Shown: positions 162 through 39,833 of the stretch, piece by piece
Position numbering within the stretch: the first letter of the stretch is position 1
Layout: each line of letters starts with the position of its first letter
From: a virus
DNA: 39,892 nucleotides
Virus genome (UHGV): UHGV-0038300
Direction: 5' to 3' (one strand)
Notes under the pieces: generated by a model
What the model was told of the DNA's origin: nothing
The model's input: only the letters and a program-made list of their open reading frames with translations
Databases searched by the model: none
Made by a program: the position numbers and the translations under genes

Positions 162-178
162 AATCATTCCCACTCAAT
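162..178. repeat. attL core: 17-bp direct repeat aatcattcccactcaat, identical to 39817-39833
   Basis: Exact 17-bp identity with the sequence overlapping the guaA stop codon at the other end; integrase lies beside the other copy. Confidence 0.75.
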
Positions 179-288
179 TATTTACGGCAACCATAACCAA
201 TTGACTGATAACAACTTTCCACAACCTGGTTTTCACCGTACCGTTTTATATACCGTCACCGGAAATCAGTACCATGAAAAATGCCATG

Positions 289-771
289 CTATCTGGTCAA
301 CGTGTCGTACTGTTTTTCGCAGACTCTTCCGGCTGCGGCTGCCCGGTCAGCATACTCTGCCAGTTGTCTGTTTCTCTCGAGAGATTTGCTGAGCACGTCG
401 GCAAGCAAAACTCCGGTGTCTGCGGCTGACGTCCCAGCGCCGACAATGGCGTTATACTGCCTGAGCTGCTCACGGATGGCAAAGAGTTGTTGCTGCAACC
501 TGCCAGCGCGAGCGGCAGCATCAAGAGCATCATTGCGCGCCTGGTCGATCCTCTGCTGAGCTTCACGTTCATTGGCCACTTTCTCCTGTTCGTAGTACTG
601 ACGAACTTTGTCTTCTTCGGCTTTGCGGTCTTCTTCCGCCTGCGCATACCCGGCATCGTACTGGCGACTGCCGTGTATATTCCAGGCAACCACTCCGACG
701 ATGAACAGAGCAGCAAGCATCAACACAATAAGCATCTGTTTCCAATATGCTTTTACGAATGCCCAGATCAT
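289..771 (-). CDS. Rz-like i-spanin (inner-membrane spanin)
   Basis: N-terminal TM helix followed by a charged coiled-coil region resembling lambda Rz; immediately downstream of the endolysin. Confidence 0.7.
297..572 (-). CDS. Rz1-like o-spanin lipoprotein embedded in the +1 frame of Rz
   Basis: Embedded ORF contains the lipoprotein signal [26 protein letters not shown] (lipobox LAGC); start codon uncertain (572 or 533). Confidence 0.55.
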   Translation of the reverse strand: MNVKLSRGSTRRAMMLLMLPLALAGCSNNSLPSVSSSGSITPLSALGRQPQTPEFCLPTCSANLSRETDNWQSMLTGQPQPEESAKNSTTR

Positions 772-1397
772 ATAGCCAGCACCTTACTGGCAGTGACGTA
801 CCGCGCGCGCCGGTCGTCGATGCCGTTCCTGCCACCATTGATAATCAGAGTTACACGTGCAATATCACCGGTATACTTCATGCATCCTTTGCTGGCAAAG
901 AACCACGCCGCGCTACGAGCCGCGTATTCGTCCTGCGCCAGCAGTTCAGGATTCTCCAGCAAGTCCACTTTCAAGCCGTTTCCGCAGTCACGATAGTTAT
1001 TCAAACCGGTAATCTGGATAAGTCCGCGACCTCGGTAATTCCAGCCATCGCCGGGGGCATTGTTCCCCATGCGTTTGCTGTACACCAGATTGGCAATCGC
1101 TCTCTGGCGCTCAGGTGGCAATGGTGGTTCACCAGCACGGCGCCCCAATGCGTTGGCCTGTCCCTGAGTGAGACGACCAGCCCGAACGAAGTTAGCCAGT
1201 CCGCTGACGCTGTAGTTGAAATTTTCCTGCAACCGGGTGAAGCCTCCAGACTCATGCCCGACCTGAGCAATAAACATTGCCTGATCTTCTGGTTTGCTGA
1301 TATCAAACTCTTTCATCGCAGAAGTTATATGCGAGAACCAGCGTGCGGCCAGCGCCTCGCTAATACCAGCAGCTCGCTGGAATTGTTTAATCTCCAT
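768..1397 (-). CDS. Endolysin, glycoside hydrolase family 19 (chitinase-like lysozyme)
   Basis: GH19-type motif AQVGHESGG and overall phage GH19 endolysin-like sequence; sits in the lysis cassette. Confidence 0.8.
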
Positions 1398-1695
1398 GTT
1401 TAGACCTCGTTATTTTGAAAATCTGAACGACGTTACCGCGAGTTTTAAGAACCGCAGCAAGCATGACAGCGTTGATAATGACCTCAGATAAATCCACAGC
1501 CATTGGCGTGCGTAACCAGATTGCATAGACGACACGAACAGGAATACTGGCCGCAGCAACAATAAGGAAATAAGCAAGCCACCCTCCCCATCTTCGGTGT
1601 TGTGAACCGTTACGCCGGAATGTGACAACACGAATTGCTATGCCAGTACAAATAAGTGCATTGGTGATAAGCAAAACAAGCTCATTAGTTACCAT
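1387..1695 (-). CDS. Small membrane protein, holin or antiholin candidate
   Basis: About 102 aa with predicted TM helices, directly upstream of and overlapping the endolysin start. Confidence 0.5.
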
Positions 1696-2095
1696 CGCCT
1701 TTTCTCCCCGGAATTAACTCGCGTGGATTATCGGAACGGTGATAGAGCCAGATGCCAATTCGAACTGCGACGATTGCTGACACGAATGCACCAGCAGAGA
1801 AAACAATCCCTTTCTCAAACGAGTCCTGCGTAATGGTAGGGATCAGGCTGGCTATGCCGATAAGAATTGATGCTGCTGGTTTGTAAAAGAGAAGGCCGCA
1901 AAGAAAGCTAAGCATCGACAGGAGCACCCGTCGGCGAATCGGATATTCGACAGCAGAGGTAACAAAAATTACCGCACCAGACAAAGAACCCAAAGCAACC
2001 TCCGGAGGAACACCTGCTATCACCGCAGCAAGAGACCCCATACTAAGCCACTGATTTAATGTTTCACTGGTTAGTTGAGCAGACATGTTTTTCAC
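1685..2095 (-). CDS. Membrane protein, holin candidate
   Basis: 136 aa with 3-4 hydrophobic helices; first gene of the lysis cassette, preceded by an AT-rich promoter-like region (2096-2414). Confidence 0.5.
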   Translation of the reverse strand: MKNMSAQLTSETLNQWLSMGSLAAVIAGVPPEVALGSLSGAVIFVTSAVEYPIRRRVLLSMLSFLCGLLFYKPAASILIGIASLIPTITQDSFEKGIVFSAGAFVSAIVAVRIGIWLYHRSDNPRELIPGRKGDGN

Positions 2096-2414
2096 CGTTT
2101 ATGTACATTAAAACCATAAGAAAAGAGAACAACACATTAAACCATAAATGGTTTTTTGTTACCTTGCAACAATTTGTGAAATAAATGAAACACAAAACAA
2201 TAATAAATAAACAGCAGGAGATATTTAAAAGATGGAATTTAACATATATTAAATATAAGCATGTGATAAGCAGAACACCTATTTATTCGCATGACAATAC
2301 ATTATATTGACAGATATTTAAATTAGATATTTATTGGTAAATACAGAGCATGTATTTTAAGTAAACCTGCGCTATAACAGCGCAGGTCAACAATTATAAA
2401 AAAAGAAATTTAAT

Positions 2415-38375: not shown

Positions 38376-39626
38376 TTATTCCCCCGCCATCCACTTCTCA
38401 AACTTCGACGGGGAGAACGGAATCAGATCCGTATGCTCCCCGTTAATCCAGGAATCAATCATATCGGCCCACTGCTGCAACATGTAGGCGCGCTGTCTGG
38501 AGTATTCCGCTTTGTTATATACGGCGCGCACACCTTTCTGCTCATGTGCCAGAGCCTTTTCAATCCAGTCTGAAGGATAACCAGCCTCATGCAACAACGT
38601 ACTGGCTGTACGGCGCATATCGTGTACGGTGAAGCCCTGAATATGCTCACCATCTTCATTTATTATTTTCACCGTTCTGTCGATCAGAGAGTTCAGCGCG
38701 GCATTAGATAATGGCTTCCGGAAATTGTAACGACCAGGAACCAGATATTCACTTCCACCAGCGCACATCTGCAACCCAACCAATATATCCTGTGCCTGTT
38801 TAGGCAGGTAAATAACGTGCGCCCGGCTTCCCTTCATGCGGTCTGAAGGAATTGTCCATGTCCATTTTTTAAAATCTATTTCATCCCACGTTGCATTGGT
38901 GAATTCGCCTTTACGAACCATAGTGATAAGCACCAGCTTTAAAGCCATTTTCATAGTGCCCATAGCACCAATGGCATCCAGCGTGCGGAAGAACAGGCCA
39001 ATTTCTTCTGGTGTCAGTGTTCGCTCTCGTGGTTTAAATATGGCGATAGACGAAGGTTTAATGTCAGCCGCAGGATTAAACAAACCATGACCACGGTCAT
39101 TGGCGTGACGGTATACGCTGCTGATGATCTCCCTGGCCTGTACTGCTGTTGCCCGACCACCGCGTTCGACAATCCGGTCACACAAATCACGAACCATCGA
39201 TGTGGTAACTTCAGCCATCATTTTGTTGCCAAGAACCGGAAGTATGTCACGGTCGATCACCGCCTGCTTCATTGCGCGGGTACTGTCAGCCAAGATGACG
39301 TGTTTCATATAACTGTCGGTATGTACCGCAAACGTCTCGGCACCACGAATCTTTTTGATACCGTCACGTTTAGCCGCAGCCGGCGACTGTCCTGCTTTAA
39401 GCAGCTTCTTTGCAGCAATCAGTTCTTCTCGCGCTTCTGCCAGACTGATACCGTCACGCCCATACTGCCCGATTACCAGTGTTTCGCGGCGACCGTTGAT
39501 ACGGTAGTCATAGCGAAACGAGACCGTGCCTGACGTAAGCACAGCTACATACAGCCCGTCACGATCGGAGACCTTGTACAGTTTGTCCTGCGGCTTGAGG
39601 TTTTTTAATTTTGTATCGGTAAGCAC
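38376..39626 (-). CDS. int: Tyrosine-type site-specific integrase (P4-like)
   Basis: N-terminal MLTDTKLKNLKP... arm-binding-type region and a C-terminal catalytic region with R...HDMRRT...Y; adjacent to attR; GTG start. Confidence 0.9.
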   Translation of the reverse strand: MLTDTKLKNLKPQDKLYKVSDRDGLYVAVLTSGTVSFRYDYRINGRRETLVIGQYGRDGISLAEAREELIAAKKLLKAGQSPAAAKRDGIKKIRGAETFAVHTDSYMKHVILADSTRAMKQAVIDRDILPVLGNKMMAEVTTSMVRDLCDRIVERGGRATAVQAREIISSVYRHANDRGHGLFNPAADIKPSSIAIFKPRERTLTPEEIGLFFRTLDAIGAMGTMKMALKLVLITMVRKGEFTNATWDEIDFKKWTWTIPSDRMKGSRAHVIYLPKQAQDILVGLQMCAGGSEYLVPGRYNFRKPLSNAALNSLIDRTVKIINEDGEHIQGFTVHDMRRTASTLLHEAGYPSDWIEKALAHEQKGVRAVYNKAEYSRQRAYMLQQWADMIDSWINGEHTDLIPFSPSKFEKWMAGE

Positions 39627-39667
39627 AATTCACCCGTATAGAAACCATTTTCATGACGGTATGAGAG

Positions 39668-39684
39668 TATACCTTTAAGGTAAT
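39668..39684. promoter_or_regulatory. 17-bp operator-like site TATACC-TTTAA-GGTAAT in the integrase promoter region, nested in a larger inverted repeat (39655-39690)
   Basis: Same site family as the immunity operators; flanked by GACGGTAT ... ATACCGTC. Confidence 0.55.
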
Positions 39685-39740
39685 ACCGTCACCTGTACCG
39701 CCGAAAAATATGGTGTAGAGTGAATAGAAATGAATACATA

Positions 39741-39770
39741 AAAACAAAAACCCTCTGCAAAAACAGAGGG
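39741..39770 (-). terminator. Phage-borne rho-independent terminator that replaces the native guaA terminator after integration
   Basis: Stem ccctctg-caaaaa-cagaggg almost identical to the host terminator stem at 114-133; the T-run is on the minus strand. Confidence 0.55.
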
Positions 39771-39816
39771 TTGAGTTGGCATCTGAATAGGAATGATTTG
39801 CTATGAGTTAGCTGTT

Positions 39817-39833
39817 AATCATTCCCACTCAAT
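39817..39833. repeat. attR core: 17-bp direct repeat aatcattcccactcaat overlapping the guaA stop codon
   Basis: Identical to 162-178. Confidence 0.75.

What the first reader, a model, noticed from the sequence alone, without database searches (positions are those of the whole stretch)
162..39833. Mosaic temperate podovirus: lambdoid regulatory modules joined to a T7-like morphogenesis gene order
The gene order portal, scaffold, capsid, tubular A/B-like, gp13/14-like, three large internal proteins, fibre follows the T7 gp8-gp17 order, while immunity, replication and recombination genes are lambdoid. From memory this resembles epsilon15/phiV10-type temperate podoviruses, some of which I recall as integrating at guaA; that family assignment is unverified.
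Basis: partly seen in the sequence, partly recalled or inferred. Interest (0 to 1): 0.35.

Follow-up and report, generated by a model that had tools for sequence, protein, structure and literature searches.

The report
phiV10-like prophage inserted at guaA

Summary
Positions 162-39833 are a complete prophage. It is bounded by two perfect copies of the published epsilon15/phiV10/ZX5 attachment core (AATCATTCCCACTCAAT) and sits between yfgI and the 3' end of guaA (...PPATIEWE*).

About 80% of the prophage matches Uetakevirus isolates (phiV10, PAS61, phiv142-3) at about 98% nucleotide identity. Intergenomic similarity is about 80% to these phages, 36% to epsilon15 and 0.2% to T7. The same integrase-guaA junction is present in 566 of 5,426 complete E. 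coli genomes.

The gene order matches T7 gp8-gp17: portal, capsid, adaptor, nozzle, small and large internal proteins, then spike. Homology to T7 shows only in profiles (portal, gp14), not in pairwise comparisons.

"Lambdoid" holds for the genome layout, the lambda-P replication gene, RecET and the shared ea genes. It does not hold for immunity. The switch is the SPC32H-type repressor plus a small antirepressor behind a LexA box. There is also a second antirepressor behind isrK/C4 RNAs, and 15 operator palindromes are spread across the genome.

What sets this copy apart:
- a tailspike receptor domain shared at 97% with P22-like prophages;
- no O-antigen-modifying gene;
- a DGQHR gene insertion;
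- three small cargo genes of unknown function.

Verdict: a new member of a known kind, of low interest.

The parts
1..69 (+). Host flank: 3' end of yfgI, followed by a terminator hairpin at 110-137. Not part of the prophage.
   Evidence: E. coli chromosomes that match 1-2165 are annotated yfgI next to the phage lysis genes. The hairpin is; the sequence is.
162..178 (.). attL core AATCATTCCCACTCAAT
   Evidence: One of only two copies in the window, 0 expected by chance. It is the reverse complement of the published attP/attB core attgagtgggaatgatt.
289..2095 (-). Lysis cassette: Rz/Rz1 spanin 289-771, GH19 endolysin 768-1397, holin 1387-1695, membrane/holin-like protein 1685-2095
   Evidence: 82-99% amino-acid identity to the phiV10, PAS61 and epsilon15 lysis proteins. 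Matching annotations are; phrog_198 holin is.
2096..2414 (.). AT-rich non-coding spacer with a terminator after the tailspike gene. The O-antigen-modifying gene found here in phiV10 (oac), PAS61 and epsilon15 is absent.
   Evidence: No ORF in this stretch; sequence. Compare.
2415..4955 (-). Chimeric tailspike, 846 aa. Residues 1 to about 200 are the Uetakevirus anchor. Residues about 207-834 are a beta-helix receptor-binding domain with NxxAxG-type repeats. The C-terminus is an intramolecular-chaperone (S74) domain with the motif SDARDK at about residue 688.
   Evidence: N-terminus: PDB 8CK1/Dpo31 domain 1, E 5e-31, and 68-83% identity to phiV10, epsilon15 and phiv142-3. Receptor domain: below 60% identity to every phage record; 96% amino-acid identity to E. 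coli protein P0001, which has a P22 head-binding domain; 97% nucleotide identity in 18 E. coli chromosomes, within a P22-like prophage in the one inspected. Weak PF13884 match.
5112..5131 (+). LexA (SOS) box TACTGTATAAATATACAGTT, 23 nt upstream of ant. A Rep operator lies at 5060-5074.
   Evidence: The perfect CTGT-N8-ACAG core is at 5114-5129. Sequence; operator.
5154..5408 (+). Small antirepressor Ant, 84 aa, SPC32H type
   Evidence: PDB 5D50 chain E 'Anti-repressor protein', E 2.4e-46 over nearly the full length. 100% identical to phiV10 p24.
5431..6159 (-). Cargo gene of 242 aa: an N-terminal transmembrane helix, a disordered linker, and two CxxC...WCxxC zinc-ribbon repeats. Function unknown.
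   Evidence: phrog_6762 (unknown function), with weak endonuclease VII and Lar-like zinc-finger hits. Absent from phiV10, PAS61 and phiv142-3. No PADLOC hit.
6324..6506 (+). isrK-like sRNA (6324-6400) and C4 antisense RNA (6419-6506), preceded by Rep operators at 6180 and 6273
   Evidence: Rfam RF01394 at 74.7 bits and RF01695 at 78.6 bits, both above their gathering scores and matched over the full model. Operators.
6555..7247 (+). Second antirepressor, with a Bro-N domain (Ant/AntA type)
   Evidence: PF02498, E 2e-13. phrog_130 'anti-repressor Ant', E 5e-52. 75% identical to phiV10 p23.
7313..8429 (+). Cargo operon: a Rep operator at 7313-7327, a small ORF (7331-7555 or 7354-7563), and a 288-aa protein (7563-8429) with 3-4 N-terminal hydrophobic segments that I read as transmembrane helices. 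It ends at a bidirectional terminator at 8428-8444.
   Evidence: phrog_3630, unknown function. No Pfam, PADLOC or NCBIfam hit. Absent from the three reference phages but 98% identical in ETEC/swine E. coli chromosomes. Terminator.
8876..15743 (-). Three large virion/internal (ejection) proteins: 824 aa (8876-11350), 600 aa (11356-13158), and about 837-862 aa (13155-15743) carrying a lytic transglycosylase segment at residues about 270-420
   Evidence: phrog_684 'virion structural', phrog_1145, and phrog_992 'head protein'. The transglycosylase segment matches PDB 9VVP Gp29 and 7Q47 endolysin. 98-99% identical to phiV10.
15668..16677 (-). Two small internal virion proteins: 181 aa (T7 gp14 family) and 154 aa (in the gp13 position)
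   Evidence: PF24072 T7_gp14, E 5.9e-7, 30 bits against a cut-off of 27. phrog_418 and phrog_308 'internal virion protein'.
16677..19753 (-). Tail nozzle (823 aa, 16677-19148) and adaptor/connector (201 aa, 19148-19753). These are the counterparts of T7 gp12 and gp11.
   Evidence: PDB 8CK1 'Tail Nozzle' E 1e-216 and 'Connector Protein' E 2e-26. phrog_9239 'tail tubular protein' E 1e-17. The epsilon15 gp11 RefSeq note cites HHpred to T7 tail tubular protein A, and the window protein is 86% identical to epsilon15 gp11.
19753..24854 (-). Head module: epsilon15 gp10-like capsid staple (19753-20082), 114-aa protein, Bbp16-like cement protein (20473-20910), major capsid protein (20962-21954), 233-aa scaffold-or-protease protein (21963-22664), Bbp19-like protein (22661-22957), portal (22954-24633), 68-aa gp3-like protein (24648-24854). 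A Rep operator lies at 24945.
   Evidence: PF21628, PF21190, PF20911, PF25181 and PF12236. phrog_458 'protease'. The 233-aa sequence is Pro/Ala/Asp/Lys-rich at its N-terminus, and I saw no protease motif on reading the rest. It has no PDB hit.
25282..25358 (+). tRNA-Arg(TCT)
   Evidence: ARAGORN and Rfam tRNA. Also annotated in phiv142-3 and the O157 typing phages.
25675..27742 (-). Terminase: TerL 25675-27150 and TerS 27147-27742. The likely TerS start is the ATG at about 27742, not the TTG at 27821. Two operators (27743-27775) and a terminator lie just upstream.
   Evidence: PF03592 and phrog_2. 99-100% identical to phiV10. Sequence; operators.
27862..30379 (-). Putative late regulator (113 aa, 27862-28203) and ea/nin-position accessory genes: 93-aa protein, DUF4752, Ead/Ea22+DUF551, 215-aa protein, DUF1064. 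Operators lie at 30383 and 30445.
   Evidence: Pfam results. Segments of about 28200-29820 are 90-98% identical to Stx-converting, P22-like and HK620-like phages. The epsilon15 gp49 homologue is annotated as a transcriptional regulator.
30497..32094 (-). Replication genes: lambda-P-family helicase loader (30497-31297) and a DnaT/HTH_36 initiator (31279-32094)
   Evidence: PF06992, E 1.5e-56; PF17948 and PF13730.
32110..33564 (.). Immunity region: 87-aa ORF (32110-32373, -), cro-like 76 aa (32461-32691, -), Rep repressor 194 aa (32846-33430, +). Operators lie at 32391, 32728, 32776, 33488 and 33550.
   Evidence: Rep matches PDB 5D50_A, E 4e-42. It has HTH_3 only, with no S24 peptidase domain. 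Operators; the same motif is annotated as 'repressor' binding sites in epsilon15.
33724..38372 (+). Early-left operon: 104-aa protein, RecE-like PDDEXK nuclease (34035-34856), RecT (34853-35734), AlpA-type Xis/regulator (35784-36032), PerC-like protein (36142-36441), DGQHR/DndB-like protein (36434-37537), MT-A70 adenine methylase (37534-38181), DUF1382 (38178-38372)
   Evidence: Pfam, TIGR03187 DGQHR E 1.4e-56, PADLOC DndB and MTase_II. The DGQHR gene is a clean 1,087-bp insertion relative to phiV10, PAS61 and phiv142-3. It is present in the same position in the Salmonella phages SPN1S, SPC32H and SPN9TCW at 71% nucleotide identity.
38376..39626 (-). P4-type tyrosine integrase, with an operator-like site at 39669 and a phage-borne terminator hairpin at about 39750-39775 that ends up downstream of guaA after integration
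   Evidence: PF13356, PF00589 and PF22022. 99% identical to the phiV10 integrase. Sequence.
39817..39833 (.). attR core AATCATTCCCACTCAAT. It overlaps the last codons and the stop codon of guaA.
39819..39892 (-). Host flank: 3' end of guaA (...[23 protein letters not shown])
   Evidence: Translation. E. coli chromosomes that match 38300-39892 at 99.4-99.6% are annotated integrase | guaA.

Best explanation
The window holds a full-length, apparently intact temperate podovirus prophage of the genus Uetakevirus (epsilon15/phiV10 group). Its P4-type integrase inserted it into the 17-bp core at the 3' end of E. coli guaA, which regenerates the last guaA codons.

Shown here by homology:
- A pac-type terminase fills an HK97-fold capsid (epsilon15 gp7/gp10 type) through a T7-gp8-family portal.
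- The short tail is built from an adaptor and a nozzle, and carries one tailspike species.
- The next five genes encode two small and three large proteins in the positions of T7 gp13-gp16. One has a lytic transglycosylase segment.

Inferred:
- Those five proteins are internal core or ejection proteins.
- Lysogeny is held by an SPC32H-type Rep that binds TTACC-N5-GGTAA operators in front of nearly every operon.
- Induction goes through antirepressors rather than repressor cleavage. One is a small Ant behind a LexA box, which would be released by the SOS response. The other is a Bro-N Ant gated by isrK/C4-type RNAs.

This copy differs from the isolated relatives by modular exchange. It has a tailspike receptor domain borrowed from P22-like prophages, so its host-surface specificity is different. 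It has lost the serotype-converting gene. It has gained a DGQHR gene and a few cargo genes of unknown function.
For: - Nucleotide identity of 96-98% to phiV10, PAS61, phiv142-3 and O157 typing phages 9 and 10 over 8.7-36.4 kb and 37.5-39.8 kb.
- Intergenomic similarity of 80% to phiV10, 79% to PAS61, 81% to phiv142-3, 36% to epsilon15 and 0.2% to T7.
- Protein identity of 93-100% at full coverage for all structural, packaging, replication and integration proteins.
- att core and guaA junction.
- The same junction is present in 566 of 5,426 complete E. coli genomes.
- Family and structure matches.
- Rep and Ant match PDB 5D50, and there is a LexA box upstream of ant.
- 15 operator palindromes against 0.75 expected, the same motif as the annotated epsilon15 repressor sites.
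- isrK and C4 RNAs.
- The receptor domain is shared with P22-like prophages.
- The SPC32H Rep tetramer is taken apart by Ant (PMC9638917). ZX5 has a short tail, integrates at guaA, and its repressor and antirepressor affect the life cycle (PMC9782041).
Against: - Nothing contradicts the family assignment.
- Function of this particular copy (inducibility, virion formation, host range) is not tested.
- LexA control of ant in SPC32H is recalled from Kim & Ryu 2013, which I could not open. Here only the box and its position are shown.
- Similarity to epsilon15, which RefSeq places in the same genus, is only 36%, so genus membership rests on the phiV10 branch.
- The scaffold-or-protease identity of the 233-aa protein is unresolved.
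Confidence: 0.96

Rival explanations
1. It is a P22-like or lambdoid (Lederbergvirus-type) prophage that only looks like a uetakevirus.
For: The tailspike receptor domain is 96-97% identical to that of P22-like prophage tailspikes in E. coli. The ea-type genes at 28.2-29.8 kb are 90-98% identical to Stx-converting and P22/HK620-like phages. A lambda-P family protein and RecET are present.
Against: All head, tail, packaging, immunity and integration genes are 93-100% identical to phiV10-group phages. The tailspike N-terminal anchor is the Uetakevirus type, not the P22 head-binding domain. No P22 gp7/gp20/gp16 or tail-needle genes are present. The insertion site is guaA, with the Uetakevirus core.
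Confidence: 0.01
2. It is a defective, cryptic remnant rather than a functional prophage.
For: Most prophages in gut isolates are not inducible, according to the title of a preprint listed. This copy lacks the O-antigen-modifying gene and carries insertions (DGQHR, cargo genes).
Against: Both att cores are perfect. The length of 39.66 kb is close to virion genomes of 39.1-39.6 kb. Every conserved gene aligns at about 100% coverage without truncation. The insertions sit at known variable spots and leave the neighbouring genes intact.
Confidence: 0.12
3. It is a temperate derivative of the T7 group (Autographiviridae) that acquired lysogeny genes.
For: The portal belongs to the T7 gp8 Pfam family, and one internal protein belongs to the T7 gp14 family. 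The gene order parallels gp8-gp17.
Against: Nucleotide similarity to T7 is 0.2%. BLASTP and phmmer find no hit between any of the 17 structural or packaging proteins and T7 gp8-gp19. No RNA polymerase or DNA polymerase gene is present, and all ORFs over 400 aa are accounted for. The capsid is the epsilon15 gp7/BPP-1 type, and the terminase lies upstream of the portal and is pac-type.
Confidence: 0.01

Closest known systems
Escherichia phages phiV10, vB_EcoP_PAS61, phiv142-3, vB_EcoP_ZX5 and O157 typing phages 9 and 10 (genus Uetakevirus)
   Same: About 98% nucleotide identity over about 80% of the genome. Same gene order, same att core and guaA site, identical Rep and small Ant, and the same tRNA-Arg.
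   Different: Intergenomic similarity is only about 80%, below the 95% species line. The tailspike receptor domain is different. There is no oac/O-antigen acetylase gene. There is an extra DGQHR gene, plus extra 242-aa and 288-aa cargo genes. The Ea22/DUF551 alleles differ.
Salmonella phage epsilon15 and the SPN1S/SPC32H group (Uetakevirus)
   Same: Same architecture, with TerL 95%, nozzle 88% and portal 81% identical. Same attP core and the same operator motif. SPC32H Rep/Ant homologues are present. The DGQHR gene lies between PerC and the methylase, as in SPN1S and SPC32H.
   Different: Only 36% intergenomic similarity to epsilon15. The capsid protein is 43% identical and Rep 42%. Epsilon15 carries serotype-conversion genes and a cytosine methylase that are absent here, and it lacks lambda P.
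Phage T7 morphogenesis block gp8-gp17
   Same: Same functional order: portal, (scaffold), capsid, adaptor, nozzle, small internal proteins, large internal proteins including one with a transglycosylase, then fibre or spike. The portal and the gp14-like protein fall in the T7 Pfam families.
   Different: No pairwise sequence similarity. Three extra small head genes are present, and an accessory block separates the core genes from the spike. The terminase lies before the portal. There is no phage RNA polymerase, and the lifestyle is temperate.
Cobetia marina podovirus Carin-1 (tail structure PDB 8CK1)
   Same: The nozzle (E 1e-216), the connector (E 2e-26) and the tailspike N-terminal anchor (E 5e-31) are clear homologues. 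This gives an experimentally solved podoviral tail as a template.
   Different: It is a marine phage from a different host, and its spike body is unrelated.
Lambda and lambdoid phages
   Same: The left-to-right logic is the same: int, xis, recombination, divergent repressor and cro, replication, accessory genes, late regulator, then the late operon. A lambda-P family loader is present. The ea genes are exchanged at over 90% nucleotide identity with Stx and P22-like phages.
   Different: The repressor lacks the S24 autocleavage domain and is countered by antirepressors. Operators are spread over the genome. The initiator is DnaT-like rather than O. No Q-family match was found. The lysis genes lie at the far end, after the tailspike.

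Membership tests
Genus Uetakevirus (epsilon15/phiV10-like temperate podoviruses) | At least 70% nucleotide similarity over the whole genome to a genus member (the ICTV genus rule, stated from my own knowledge) | tested here: met
   VIRIDIC-style similarity is 80.0% to phiV10, 79.2% to PAS61 and 80.8% to phiv142-3. It is only 36% to epsilon15.
Genus Uetakevirus | Same species as an isolated member (at least 95% similarity) | tested here: not met
   The best value is 80.8%. By that rule it is a separate species-level lineage within the genus.
Genus Uetakevirus | Integration at the 3' end of guaA through the core attgagtgggaatgatt and a P4-type integrase | tested here: met
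Genus Uetakevirus | Signature structural proteins: epsilon15 gp7-type capsid, gp10-type staple, T7-gp8-type portal, adaptor and nozzle, and the tailspike N-terminal anchor | tested here: met
   PF20911, PF21628 and PF12236. PDB 8CK1. 93-100% identity to phiV10 proteins.
Genus Uetakevirus | Short-tailed (podovirus) virion | not testable with these tools
   Inferred from near-identity to phages with a reported short tail (ZX5) and from homology to a solved podoviral tail.
Genus Uetakevirus | Rep/Ant antirepression switch with TTACC-N5-GGTAA operators | tested here: met
   Homologues of both chains of PDB 5D50. A LexA box. 15 operator sites against 0.75 expected, the same motif as the epsilon15 annotated sites. 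Binding itself was not tested.
Genus Uetakevirus | O-antigen-modifying (serotype-converting) gene next to the tailspike. This is common in the genus but not defining. | tested here: not met
   Positions 2096-2414 are non-coding. phiV10, PAS61 and epsilon15 each have such a gene there.
Lambdoid phages | cI-type repressor with a LexA-like S24 autocleavage domain acting at OL and OR only | tested here: not met
   Rep has HTH domains only and matches SPC32H Rep. Operators occur at 15 sites across the genome.
Lambdoid phages | Lambda O/P-type replication genes | tested here: inconclusive
   P is present (PF06992, E 1.5e-56), but the initiator is a DnaT/HTH_36 protein, not lambda O.
Lambdoid phages | Q-type late antiterminator | tested here: inconclusive
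   The 113-aa protein upstream of terS has no Pfam or NCBIfam match. It is annotated only as a 'transcriptional regulator' in epsilon15 and phiV10.
Lambdoid phages | Exchange of modules with other lambdoid phages | tested here: met
   The ea-type genes at about 28.2-29.8 kb are 90-98% identical to Stx-converting, P22-like and HK620-like phages. The receptor domain is shared with P22-like prophages.
T7-like phages (Autographiviridae) | Phage-encoded single-subunit RNA polymerase and T7-type DNA polymerase | tested here: not met
   All ORFs over 400 aa are assigned to other functions.
T7-like phages (Autographiviridae) | Sequence homology of gp8-gp17 counterparts to the T7 proteins | tested here: inconclusive
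   Profile level: portal PF12236 E 5e-187 and gp14 PF24072 E 6e-7. Pairwise BLASTP and phmmer found no hits. An adaptor model for a fold comparison failed, with pLDDT 38.

The most novel reading that the evidence does not exclude
The parts that differ from the isolated relatives may hide small novelties:
(i) The 242-aa membrane and zinc-ribbon protein and the 288-aa multi-pass membrane protein each lie near Rep operators. They could be unrecognised superinfection-exclusion or host-takeover factors.
(ii) The DGQHR (DndB-like) gene overlaps the start of the MT-A70 methylase gene. The pair could form a phage DNA-modification or anti-defence unit.
(iii) The receptor domain borrowed from P22-like prophages, together with the loss of the serotype-converting gene, could define a new receptor specificity for a uetakevirus.
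The evidence excludes none of these, and none would change what the element is.
Probability: 0.25. Interest if true: 0.3.

Novelty: new member of a known kind. Interest (0 to 1): 0.1.

Why it matters
It matters little beyond bookkeeping. It is one more mosaic variant of a prophage type found at guaA in about 10% of complete E. coli genomes.

It does give a clean worked example of two known principles. The first is exchange of the tailspike receptor domain between Uetakevirus and P22-like (Lederbergvirus) prophages; such exchange between the two genera was described in PMC10408124. The second is antirepressor-based rather than cleavage-based induction.

The chimeric tailspike could be useful to people who build receptor-binding-protein libraries for serogroup typing or tailocin retargeting. 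The few unannotated cargo genes are candidates for superinfection-exclusion screens.

Tried and rejected
- BLASTP and phmmer of 17 structural and packaging proteins against T7 gp8-gp19 gave only chance-level hits. I therefore dropped any claim of close T7 homology.
- A single-sequence AlphaFold model of the 201-aa adaptor, meant for a fold search against T7 gp11, had mean pLDDT 37.9 and was unusable. I ran no fold search on it.
- PDB sequence searches for the 824-aa, 600-aa and 233-aa proteins found nothing significant. The 'scaffold versus protease' question stays open.
- PADLOC, Pfam and NCBIfam gave no hits for the 242-aa, 74-aa and 288-aa cargo proteins.
- I first thought the receptor domain was absent from complete E. 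coli genomes, because searches listed no record covering it. A dedicated search showed it in 18 genomes, within a P22-like prophage in the one inspected. The earlier lists had simply ranked longer partial matches higher.
- Kim & Ryu 2013 (PMC3807360) on LexA control of ant could not be opened.
- A literature search for phage DGQHR functions found nothing relevant.
- Several ORFs listed mechanically were rejected as spurious or over-long. These are 6416-6763(-), which overlaps the isrK/C4 RNAs; 38215-38487(+); the TTG start of terS at 27821; and the 126-aa form of ant.

Full report
**What is there.** The window contains one prophage. A 17-bp sequence, AATCATTCCCACTCAAT, occurs exactly twice, at 162-178 and 39817-39833, against 0 matches expected by chance. 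The bases to the right of the second copy, read on the minus strand, translate to ...[23 protein letters not shown], the C-terminus of GMP synthase GuaA. The repeat itself supplies the last codons and the stop. The bases to the left of the first copy are the end of yfgI and its terminator. The repeat is the reverse complement of attgagtgggaatgatt. That sequence is reported as the attP/attB core of epsilon15, phiV10 and vB_EcoP_ZX5, and ZX5 was shown experimentally to integrate at the 3' end of guaA (PMC9782041). The junction of integrase, att core and guaA is found at 99.4-99.6% identity in the best-matching E. coli chromosomes, and 566 of 5,426 complete genomes carry it.

**Which phage.** Megablast against 50,697 phage records gives Uetakevirus genomes as the best matches. 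These are PAS61, O157 typing phages 9 and 10, phiv142-3, ZX5, HEMP4 and phiV10, at 96-98% identity. Epsilon15 and other Salmonella, Enterobacter and Klebsiella relatives match at 76-82%.

A VIRIDIC-style calculation gives the following intergenomic similarities:
- 80.0% to phiV10
- 79.2% to PAS61
- 80.8% to phiv142-3
- 36.3% to epsilon15
- 0.2% to T7

By the ICTV rules (70% for genus, 95% for species; stated from my own knowledge) this is a member of the genus on the phiV10 branch, but not the same species as any isolate I compared.

Protein by protein, every conserved gene aligns over its full length. Examples are TerL at 99% to phiV10 and 95% to epsilon15, portal at 99% and 81%, capsid at 100% and 43%, nozzle at 99% and 88%, Rep at 100% and 42%, and integrase at 99% and 87%. 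Both att cores are perfect, and the 39.66-kb length is close to that of the virion genomes. The prophage therefore looks intact, although I could not test function.

**The 'T7-like' half.** The late operon runs on the minus strand from about 27.7 kb down to 8.9 kb, in this order:
- TerS (PF03592) and TerL.
- A small gp3-like gene.
- Portal (PF12236, the T7 gp8 family, E 5e-187).
- A Bbp19-like protein.
- A 233-aa protein, discussed below.
- Major capsid protein (PF20911, epsilon15 gp7).
- A Bbp16-like protein, a 114-aa protein, and the epsilon15 gp10-like staple.
- A 201-aa tail protein and an 823-aa tail protein.
- Two small 'internal virion proteins', one in the Pfam family T7_gp14 (E 6e-7, above the curated cut-off).
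- Three large proteins, the first with a lytic transglycosylase segment.

The 201-aa and 823-aa proteins match the 'Connector Protein' (E 2e-26) and 'Tail Nozzle' (E 1e-216) chains of PDB 8CK1. The tailspike N-terminus matches domain 1 of the tailspike in the same entry (E 5e-31). Those chains belong to the marine podovirus Carin-1. The epsilon15 RefSeq record notes an HHpred match of gp11 to T7 tail tubular protein A, and the window protein is 86% identical to that gp11.

The functional order therefore does parallel T7 gp8-gp17. The relationship is remote, though. BLASTP and phmmer of all 17 proteins against T7 gp8-gp19 find nothing. There is no phage RNA polymerase. The terminase precedes the portal, three extra small head genes are present, and a 3.9-kb accessory block separates the core genes from the spike.

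It has no Pfam or PDB match. Its sequence has a Pro/Ala/Asp/Lys-rich N-terminus, and I saw no protease motif on reading the rest. By position and composition a scaffold is plausible, but I could not settle it.

**The 'lambdoid' half.** The layout resembles lambda. It holds:
- an integrase (P4 type, with an arm-binding domain);
- an AlpA-type Xis;
- RecE-like and RecT recombination genes;
- a divergent repressor and cro-like pair;
- a DnaT-like initiator and a lambda-P-family loader (PF06992, E 1.5e-56);
- a block of ea-type accessory genes (Ead/Ea22, DUF551, DUF4752, DUF1064);
- a small regulator just upstream of the late operon.

Mosaic exchange with lambdoid phages is directly visible. Pieces of 28.2-29.8 kb are 90-98% identical to Stx-converting, P22-like and HK620-like phages.

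The immunity switch is not lambda's:
- The 194-aa repressor has HTH domains only, with no S24 peptidase domain. It matches the SPC32H repressor (PDB 5D50_A, E 4e-42).
- An 84-aa ORF at 5154-5408 matches the SPC32H antirepressor in the same crystal structure (5D50_E, E 2.4e-46).
- That ORF is preceded at 5112-5131 by TACTGTATAAATATACAGTT, which contains a perfect LexA-box core.
- In SPC32H the Ant tetramer takes the Rep tetramer apart (PMC9638917). That ant is held off by LexA is my recollection of Kim & Ryu 2013, which I could not open.
- A second antirepressor with a Bro-N domain (6555-7247) sits directly behind full-length Rfam matches to isrK (74.7 bits) and C4 antisense RNA (78.6 bits). 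This resembles a phage P1 immI-type module.
- The palindrome TTACC-N5-GGTAA occurs 15 times (11 perfect) against 0.75 expected. It lies in front of ant, the Bro-N block, the cargo operon, the portal operon, terS, the DUF1064 block, both sides of rep, and int. It is the same motif as the 'repressor' binding sites annotated in epsilon15, and it is conserved at matching places in phiV10 and PAS61.

The likely mechanism, which is inferred, is direct repression of many promoters by Rep, with SOS-triggered and RNA-gated antirepressors for induction.

**What is particular to this copy.** Alignment to phiV10, PAS61 and phiv142-3 leaves four unmatched blocks: 2164-4333, 5433-6266, 7329-8418 and 36450-37536.

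1. The first block is the tailspike receptor domain.
   - The 846-aa protein keeps the Uetakevirus anchor (residues 1 to about 200).
   - The rest is below 60% identical to anything in the phage collection; the best matches are Bacillus SPO1-group proteins at about 37%.
   - It is 96% identical to an E. coli protein cluster that carries a P22-type head-binding domain.
   - It is 97% identical at the DNA level to tailspike genes in 18 of 5,426 E. coli chromosomes. The one I inspected lies in a P22-like prophage, next to Arc, the DNA-transfer proteins and the tail needle gene.
   - More distant relatives carry still other anchors, plus pectate-lyase-like and S74 chaperone domains. A Chimaeribacter homologue is 66% identical from residue 183 onward.
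   - This is the kind of receptor-domain exchange between Lederberg- and Uetakeviruses described in PMC10408124.
   - The C-terminus has the SDARDK motif typical of self-cleaving intramolecular chaperones (my reading of the sequence), with a weak PF13884 match.
2. No O-antigen-modifying gene follows the spike. Positions 2096-2414 are non-coding, unlike phiV10, PAS61 and epsilon15.
3. The second and third blocks are cargo genes of unknown function.
   - One is a 242-aa protein with a transmembrane helix and two zinc-ribbon repeats.
   - The other is a small ORF plus a 288-aa multi-pass membrane protein.
   - Neither matches a defence-system model.
   - They occur at 98% identity in prophages of swine ETEC strains.
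4. The fourth block is a clean one-gene insertion of a DGQHR (DndB-like) protein between the PerC-like gene and the MT-A70 methylase. The Salmonella members SPN1S, SPC32H and SPN9TCW have it in the same place at 71% nucleotide identity.

**Verdict.** 'T7-like' should be read as shared podoviral design with remote homology, and 'lambdoid' applies to layout, replication loader, recombination genes and shared accessory genes, but not to the immunity switch. This is a new mosaic member of a well-known and very common prophage genus. All its distinctive features arise from kinds of modular exchange already described for the group. Interest is low.

Noticed in passing
window 5060, 6180, 6273, 7313, 24945, 27743, 27761, 30383, 30445, 32391, 32728, 32776, 33488, 33550, 39669 (15-bp sites): The palindrome TTACC-N5-GGTAA occurs 15 times (11 perfect) against 0.75 expected. 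It lies almost always between operons. It is the same motif as the 'repressor' sites annotated in epsilon15 and is conserved in phiV10 and PAS61. This suggests one repressor silences most promoters directly.
   Followed up: partly
window 5112-5131 and 5154-5408 (+): A LexA box with a perfect CTGT-N8-ACAG core lies 23 nt upstream of an 84-aa homologue of the SPC32H antirepressor (PDB 5D50_E). The mechanical ORF list gives an over-long 126-aa form starting at 5028.
   Followed up: yes
window 6324-6400 and 6419-6506 (+): Full-length Rfam matches to the isrK Hfq-binding sRNA and to C4 antisense RNA lie directly upstream of the Bro-N antirepressor gene. This resembles a P1 immI-like or Gifsy-1-like RNA gate inside a uetakevirus. 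The listed ORF 6416-6763(-) overlaps these RNAs and is probably spurious.
   Followed up: partly
window 36434-37537 (+): A DGQHR/DndB-like gene (TIGR03187, E 1e-56) is inserted cleanly between the PerC-like gene and the MT-A70 methylase, overlapping both by a few bases. GC content drops to about 43% here. The gene is absent from the three E. coli relatives compared (phiV10, PAS61, phiv142-3) and is present in Salmonella SPN1S and SPC32H at 71% nucleotide identity. I found no published function for phage copies.
   Followed up: partly
window 5431-6159 (-) and 7331-8429 (+): Cargo genes of unknown function. One is a 242-aa protein with one transmembrane helix and two CxxC...WCxxC zinc-ribbon repeats. 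The other is a small ORF plus a 288-aa protein with 3-4 transmembrane helices. Each has its own terminator and nearby Rep operators. Neither matches a defence-system model. Both are 98% identical in swine ETEC chromosomes.
   Followed up: partly
window 110-137 and about 39750-39775: The host terminator downstream of the original guaA end (AAAACCCTCTG...CAGAGGGTTTT) and a phage-borne hairpin just inside attR have nearly the same stem. After integration the phage therefore appears to supply guaA with a look-alike terminator.
   Followed up: no
window 27743-27821: The 224-aa TerS ORF (TTG start at 27821, as also annotated in phiV10) contains a terminator and two operator sites. The ATG at about 27742 (197-198 aa, as annotated in phiv142-3) is the more likely start.
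   Followed up: partly
window 25282-25358 (+): A tRNA-Arg(TCT) gene lies between terL and the portal operon, on the strand opposite to the late genes. It is conserved in phiv142-3 and the O157 typing phages.
   Followed up: no
L004 5395-7878 (Chimaeribacter arupi NZ_PJZI01000015.1): Only one species-representative genome in the GTDB set encodes a close relative of the receptor domain (66% identity from residue 183 onward). It has an unrelated N-terminal anchor, so the domain travels between phage types across enterobacterial genera.
   Followed up: partly
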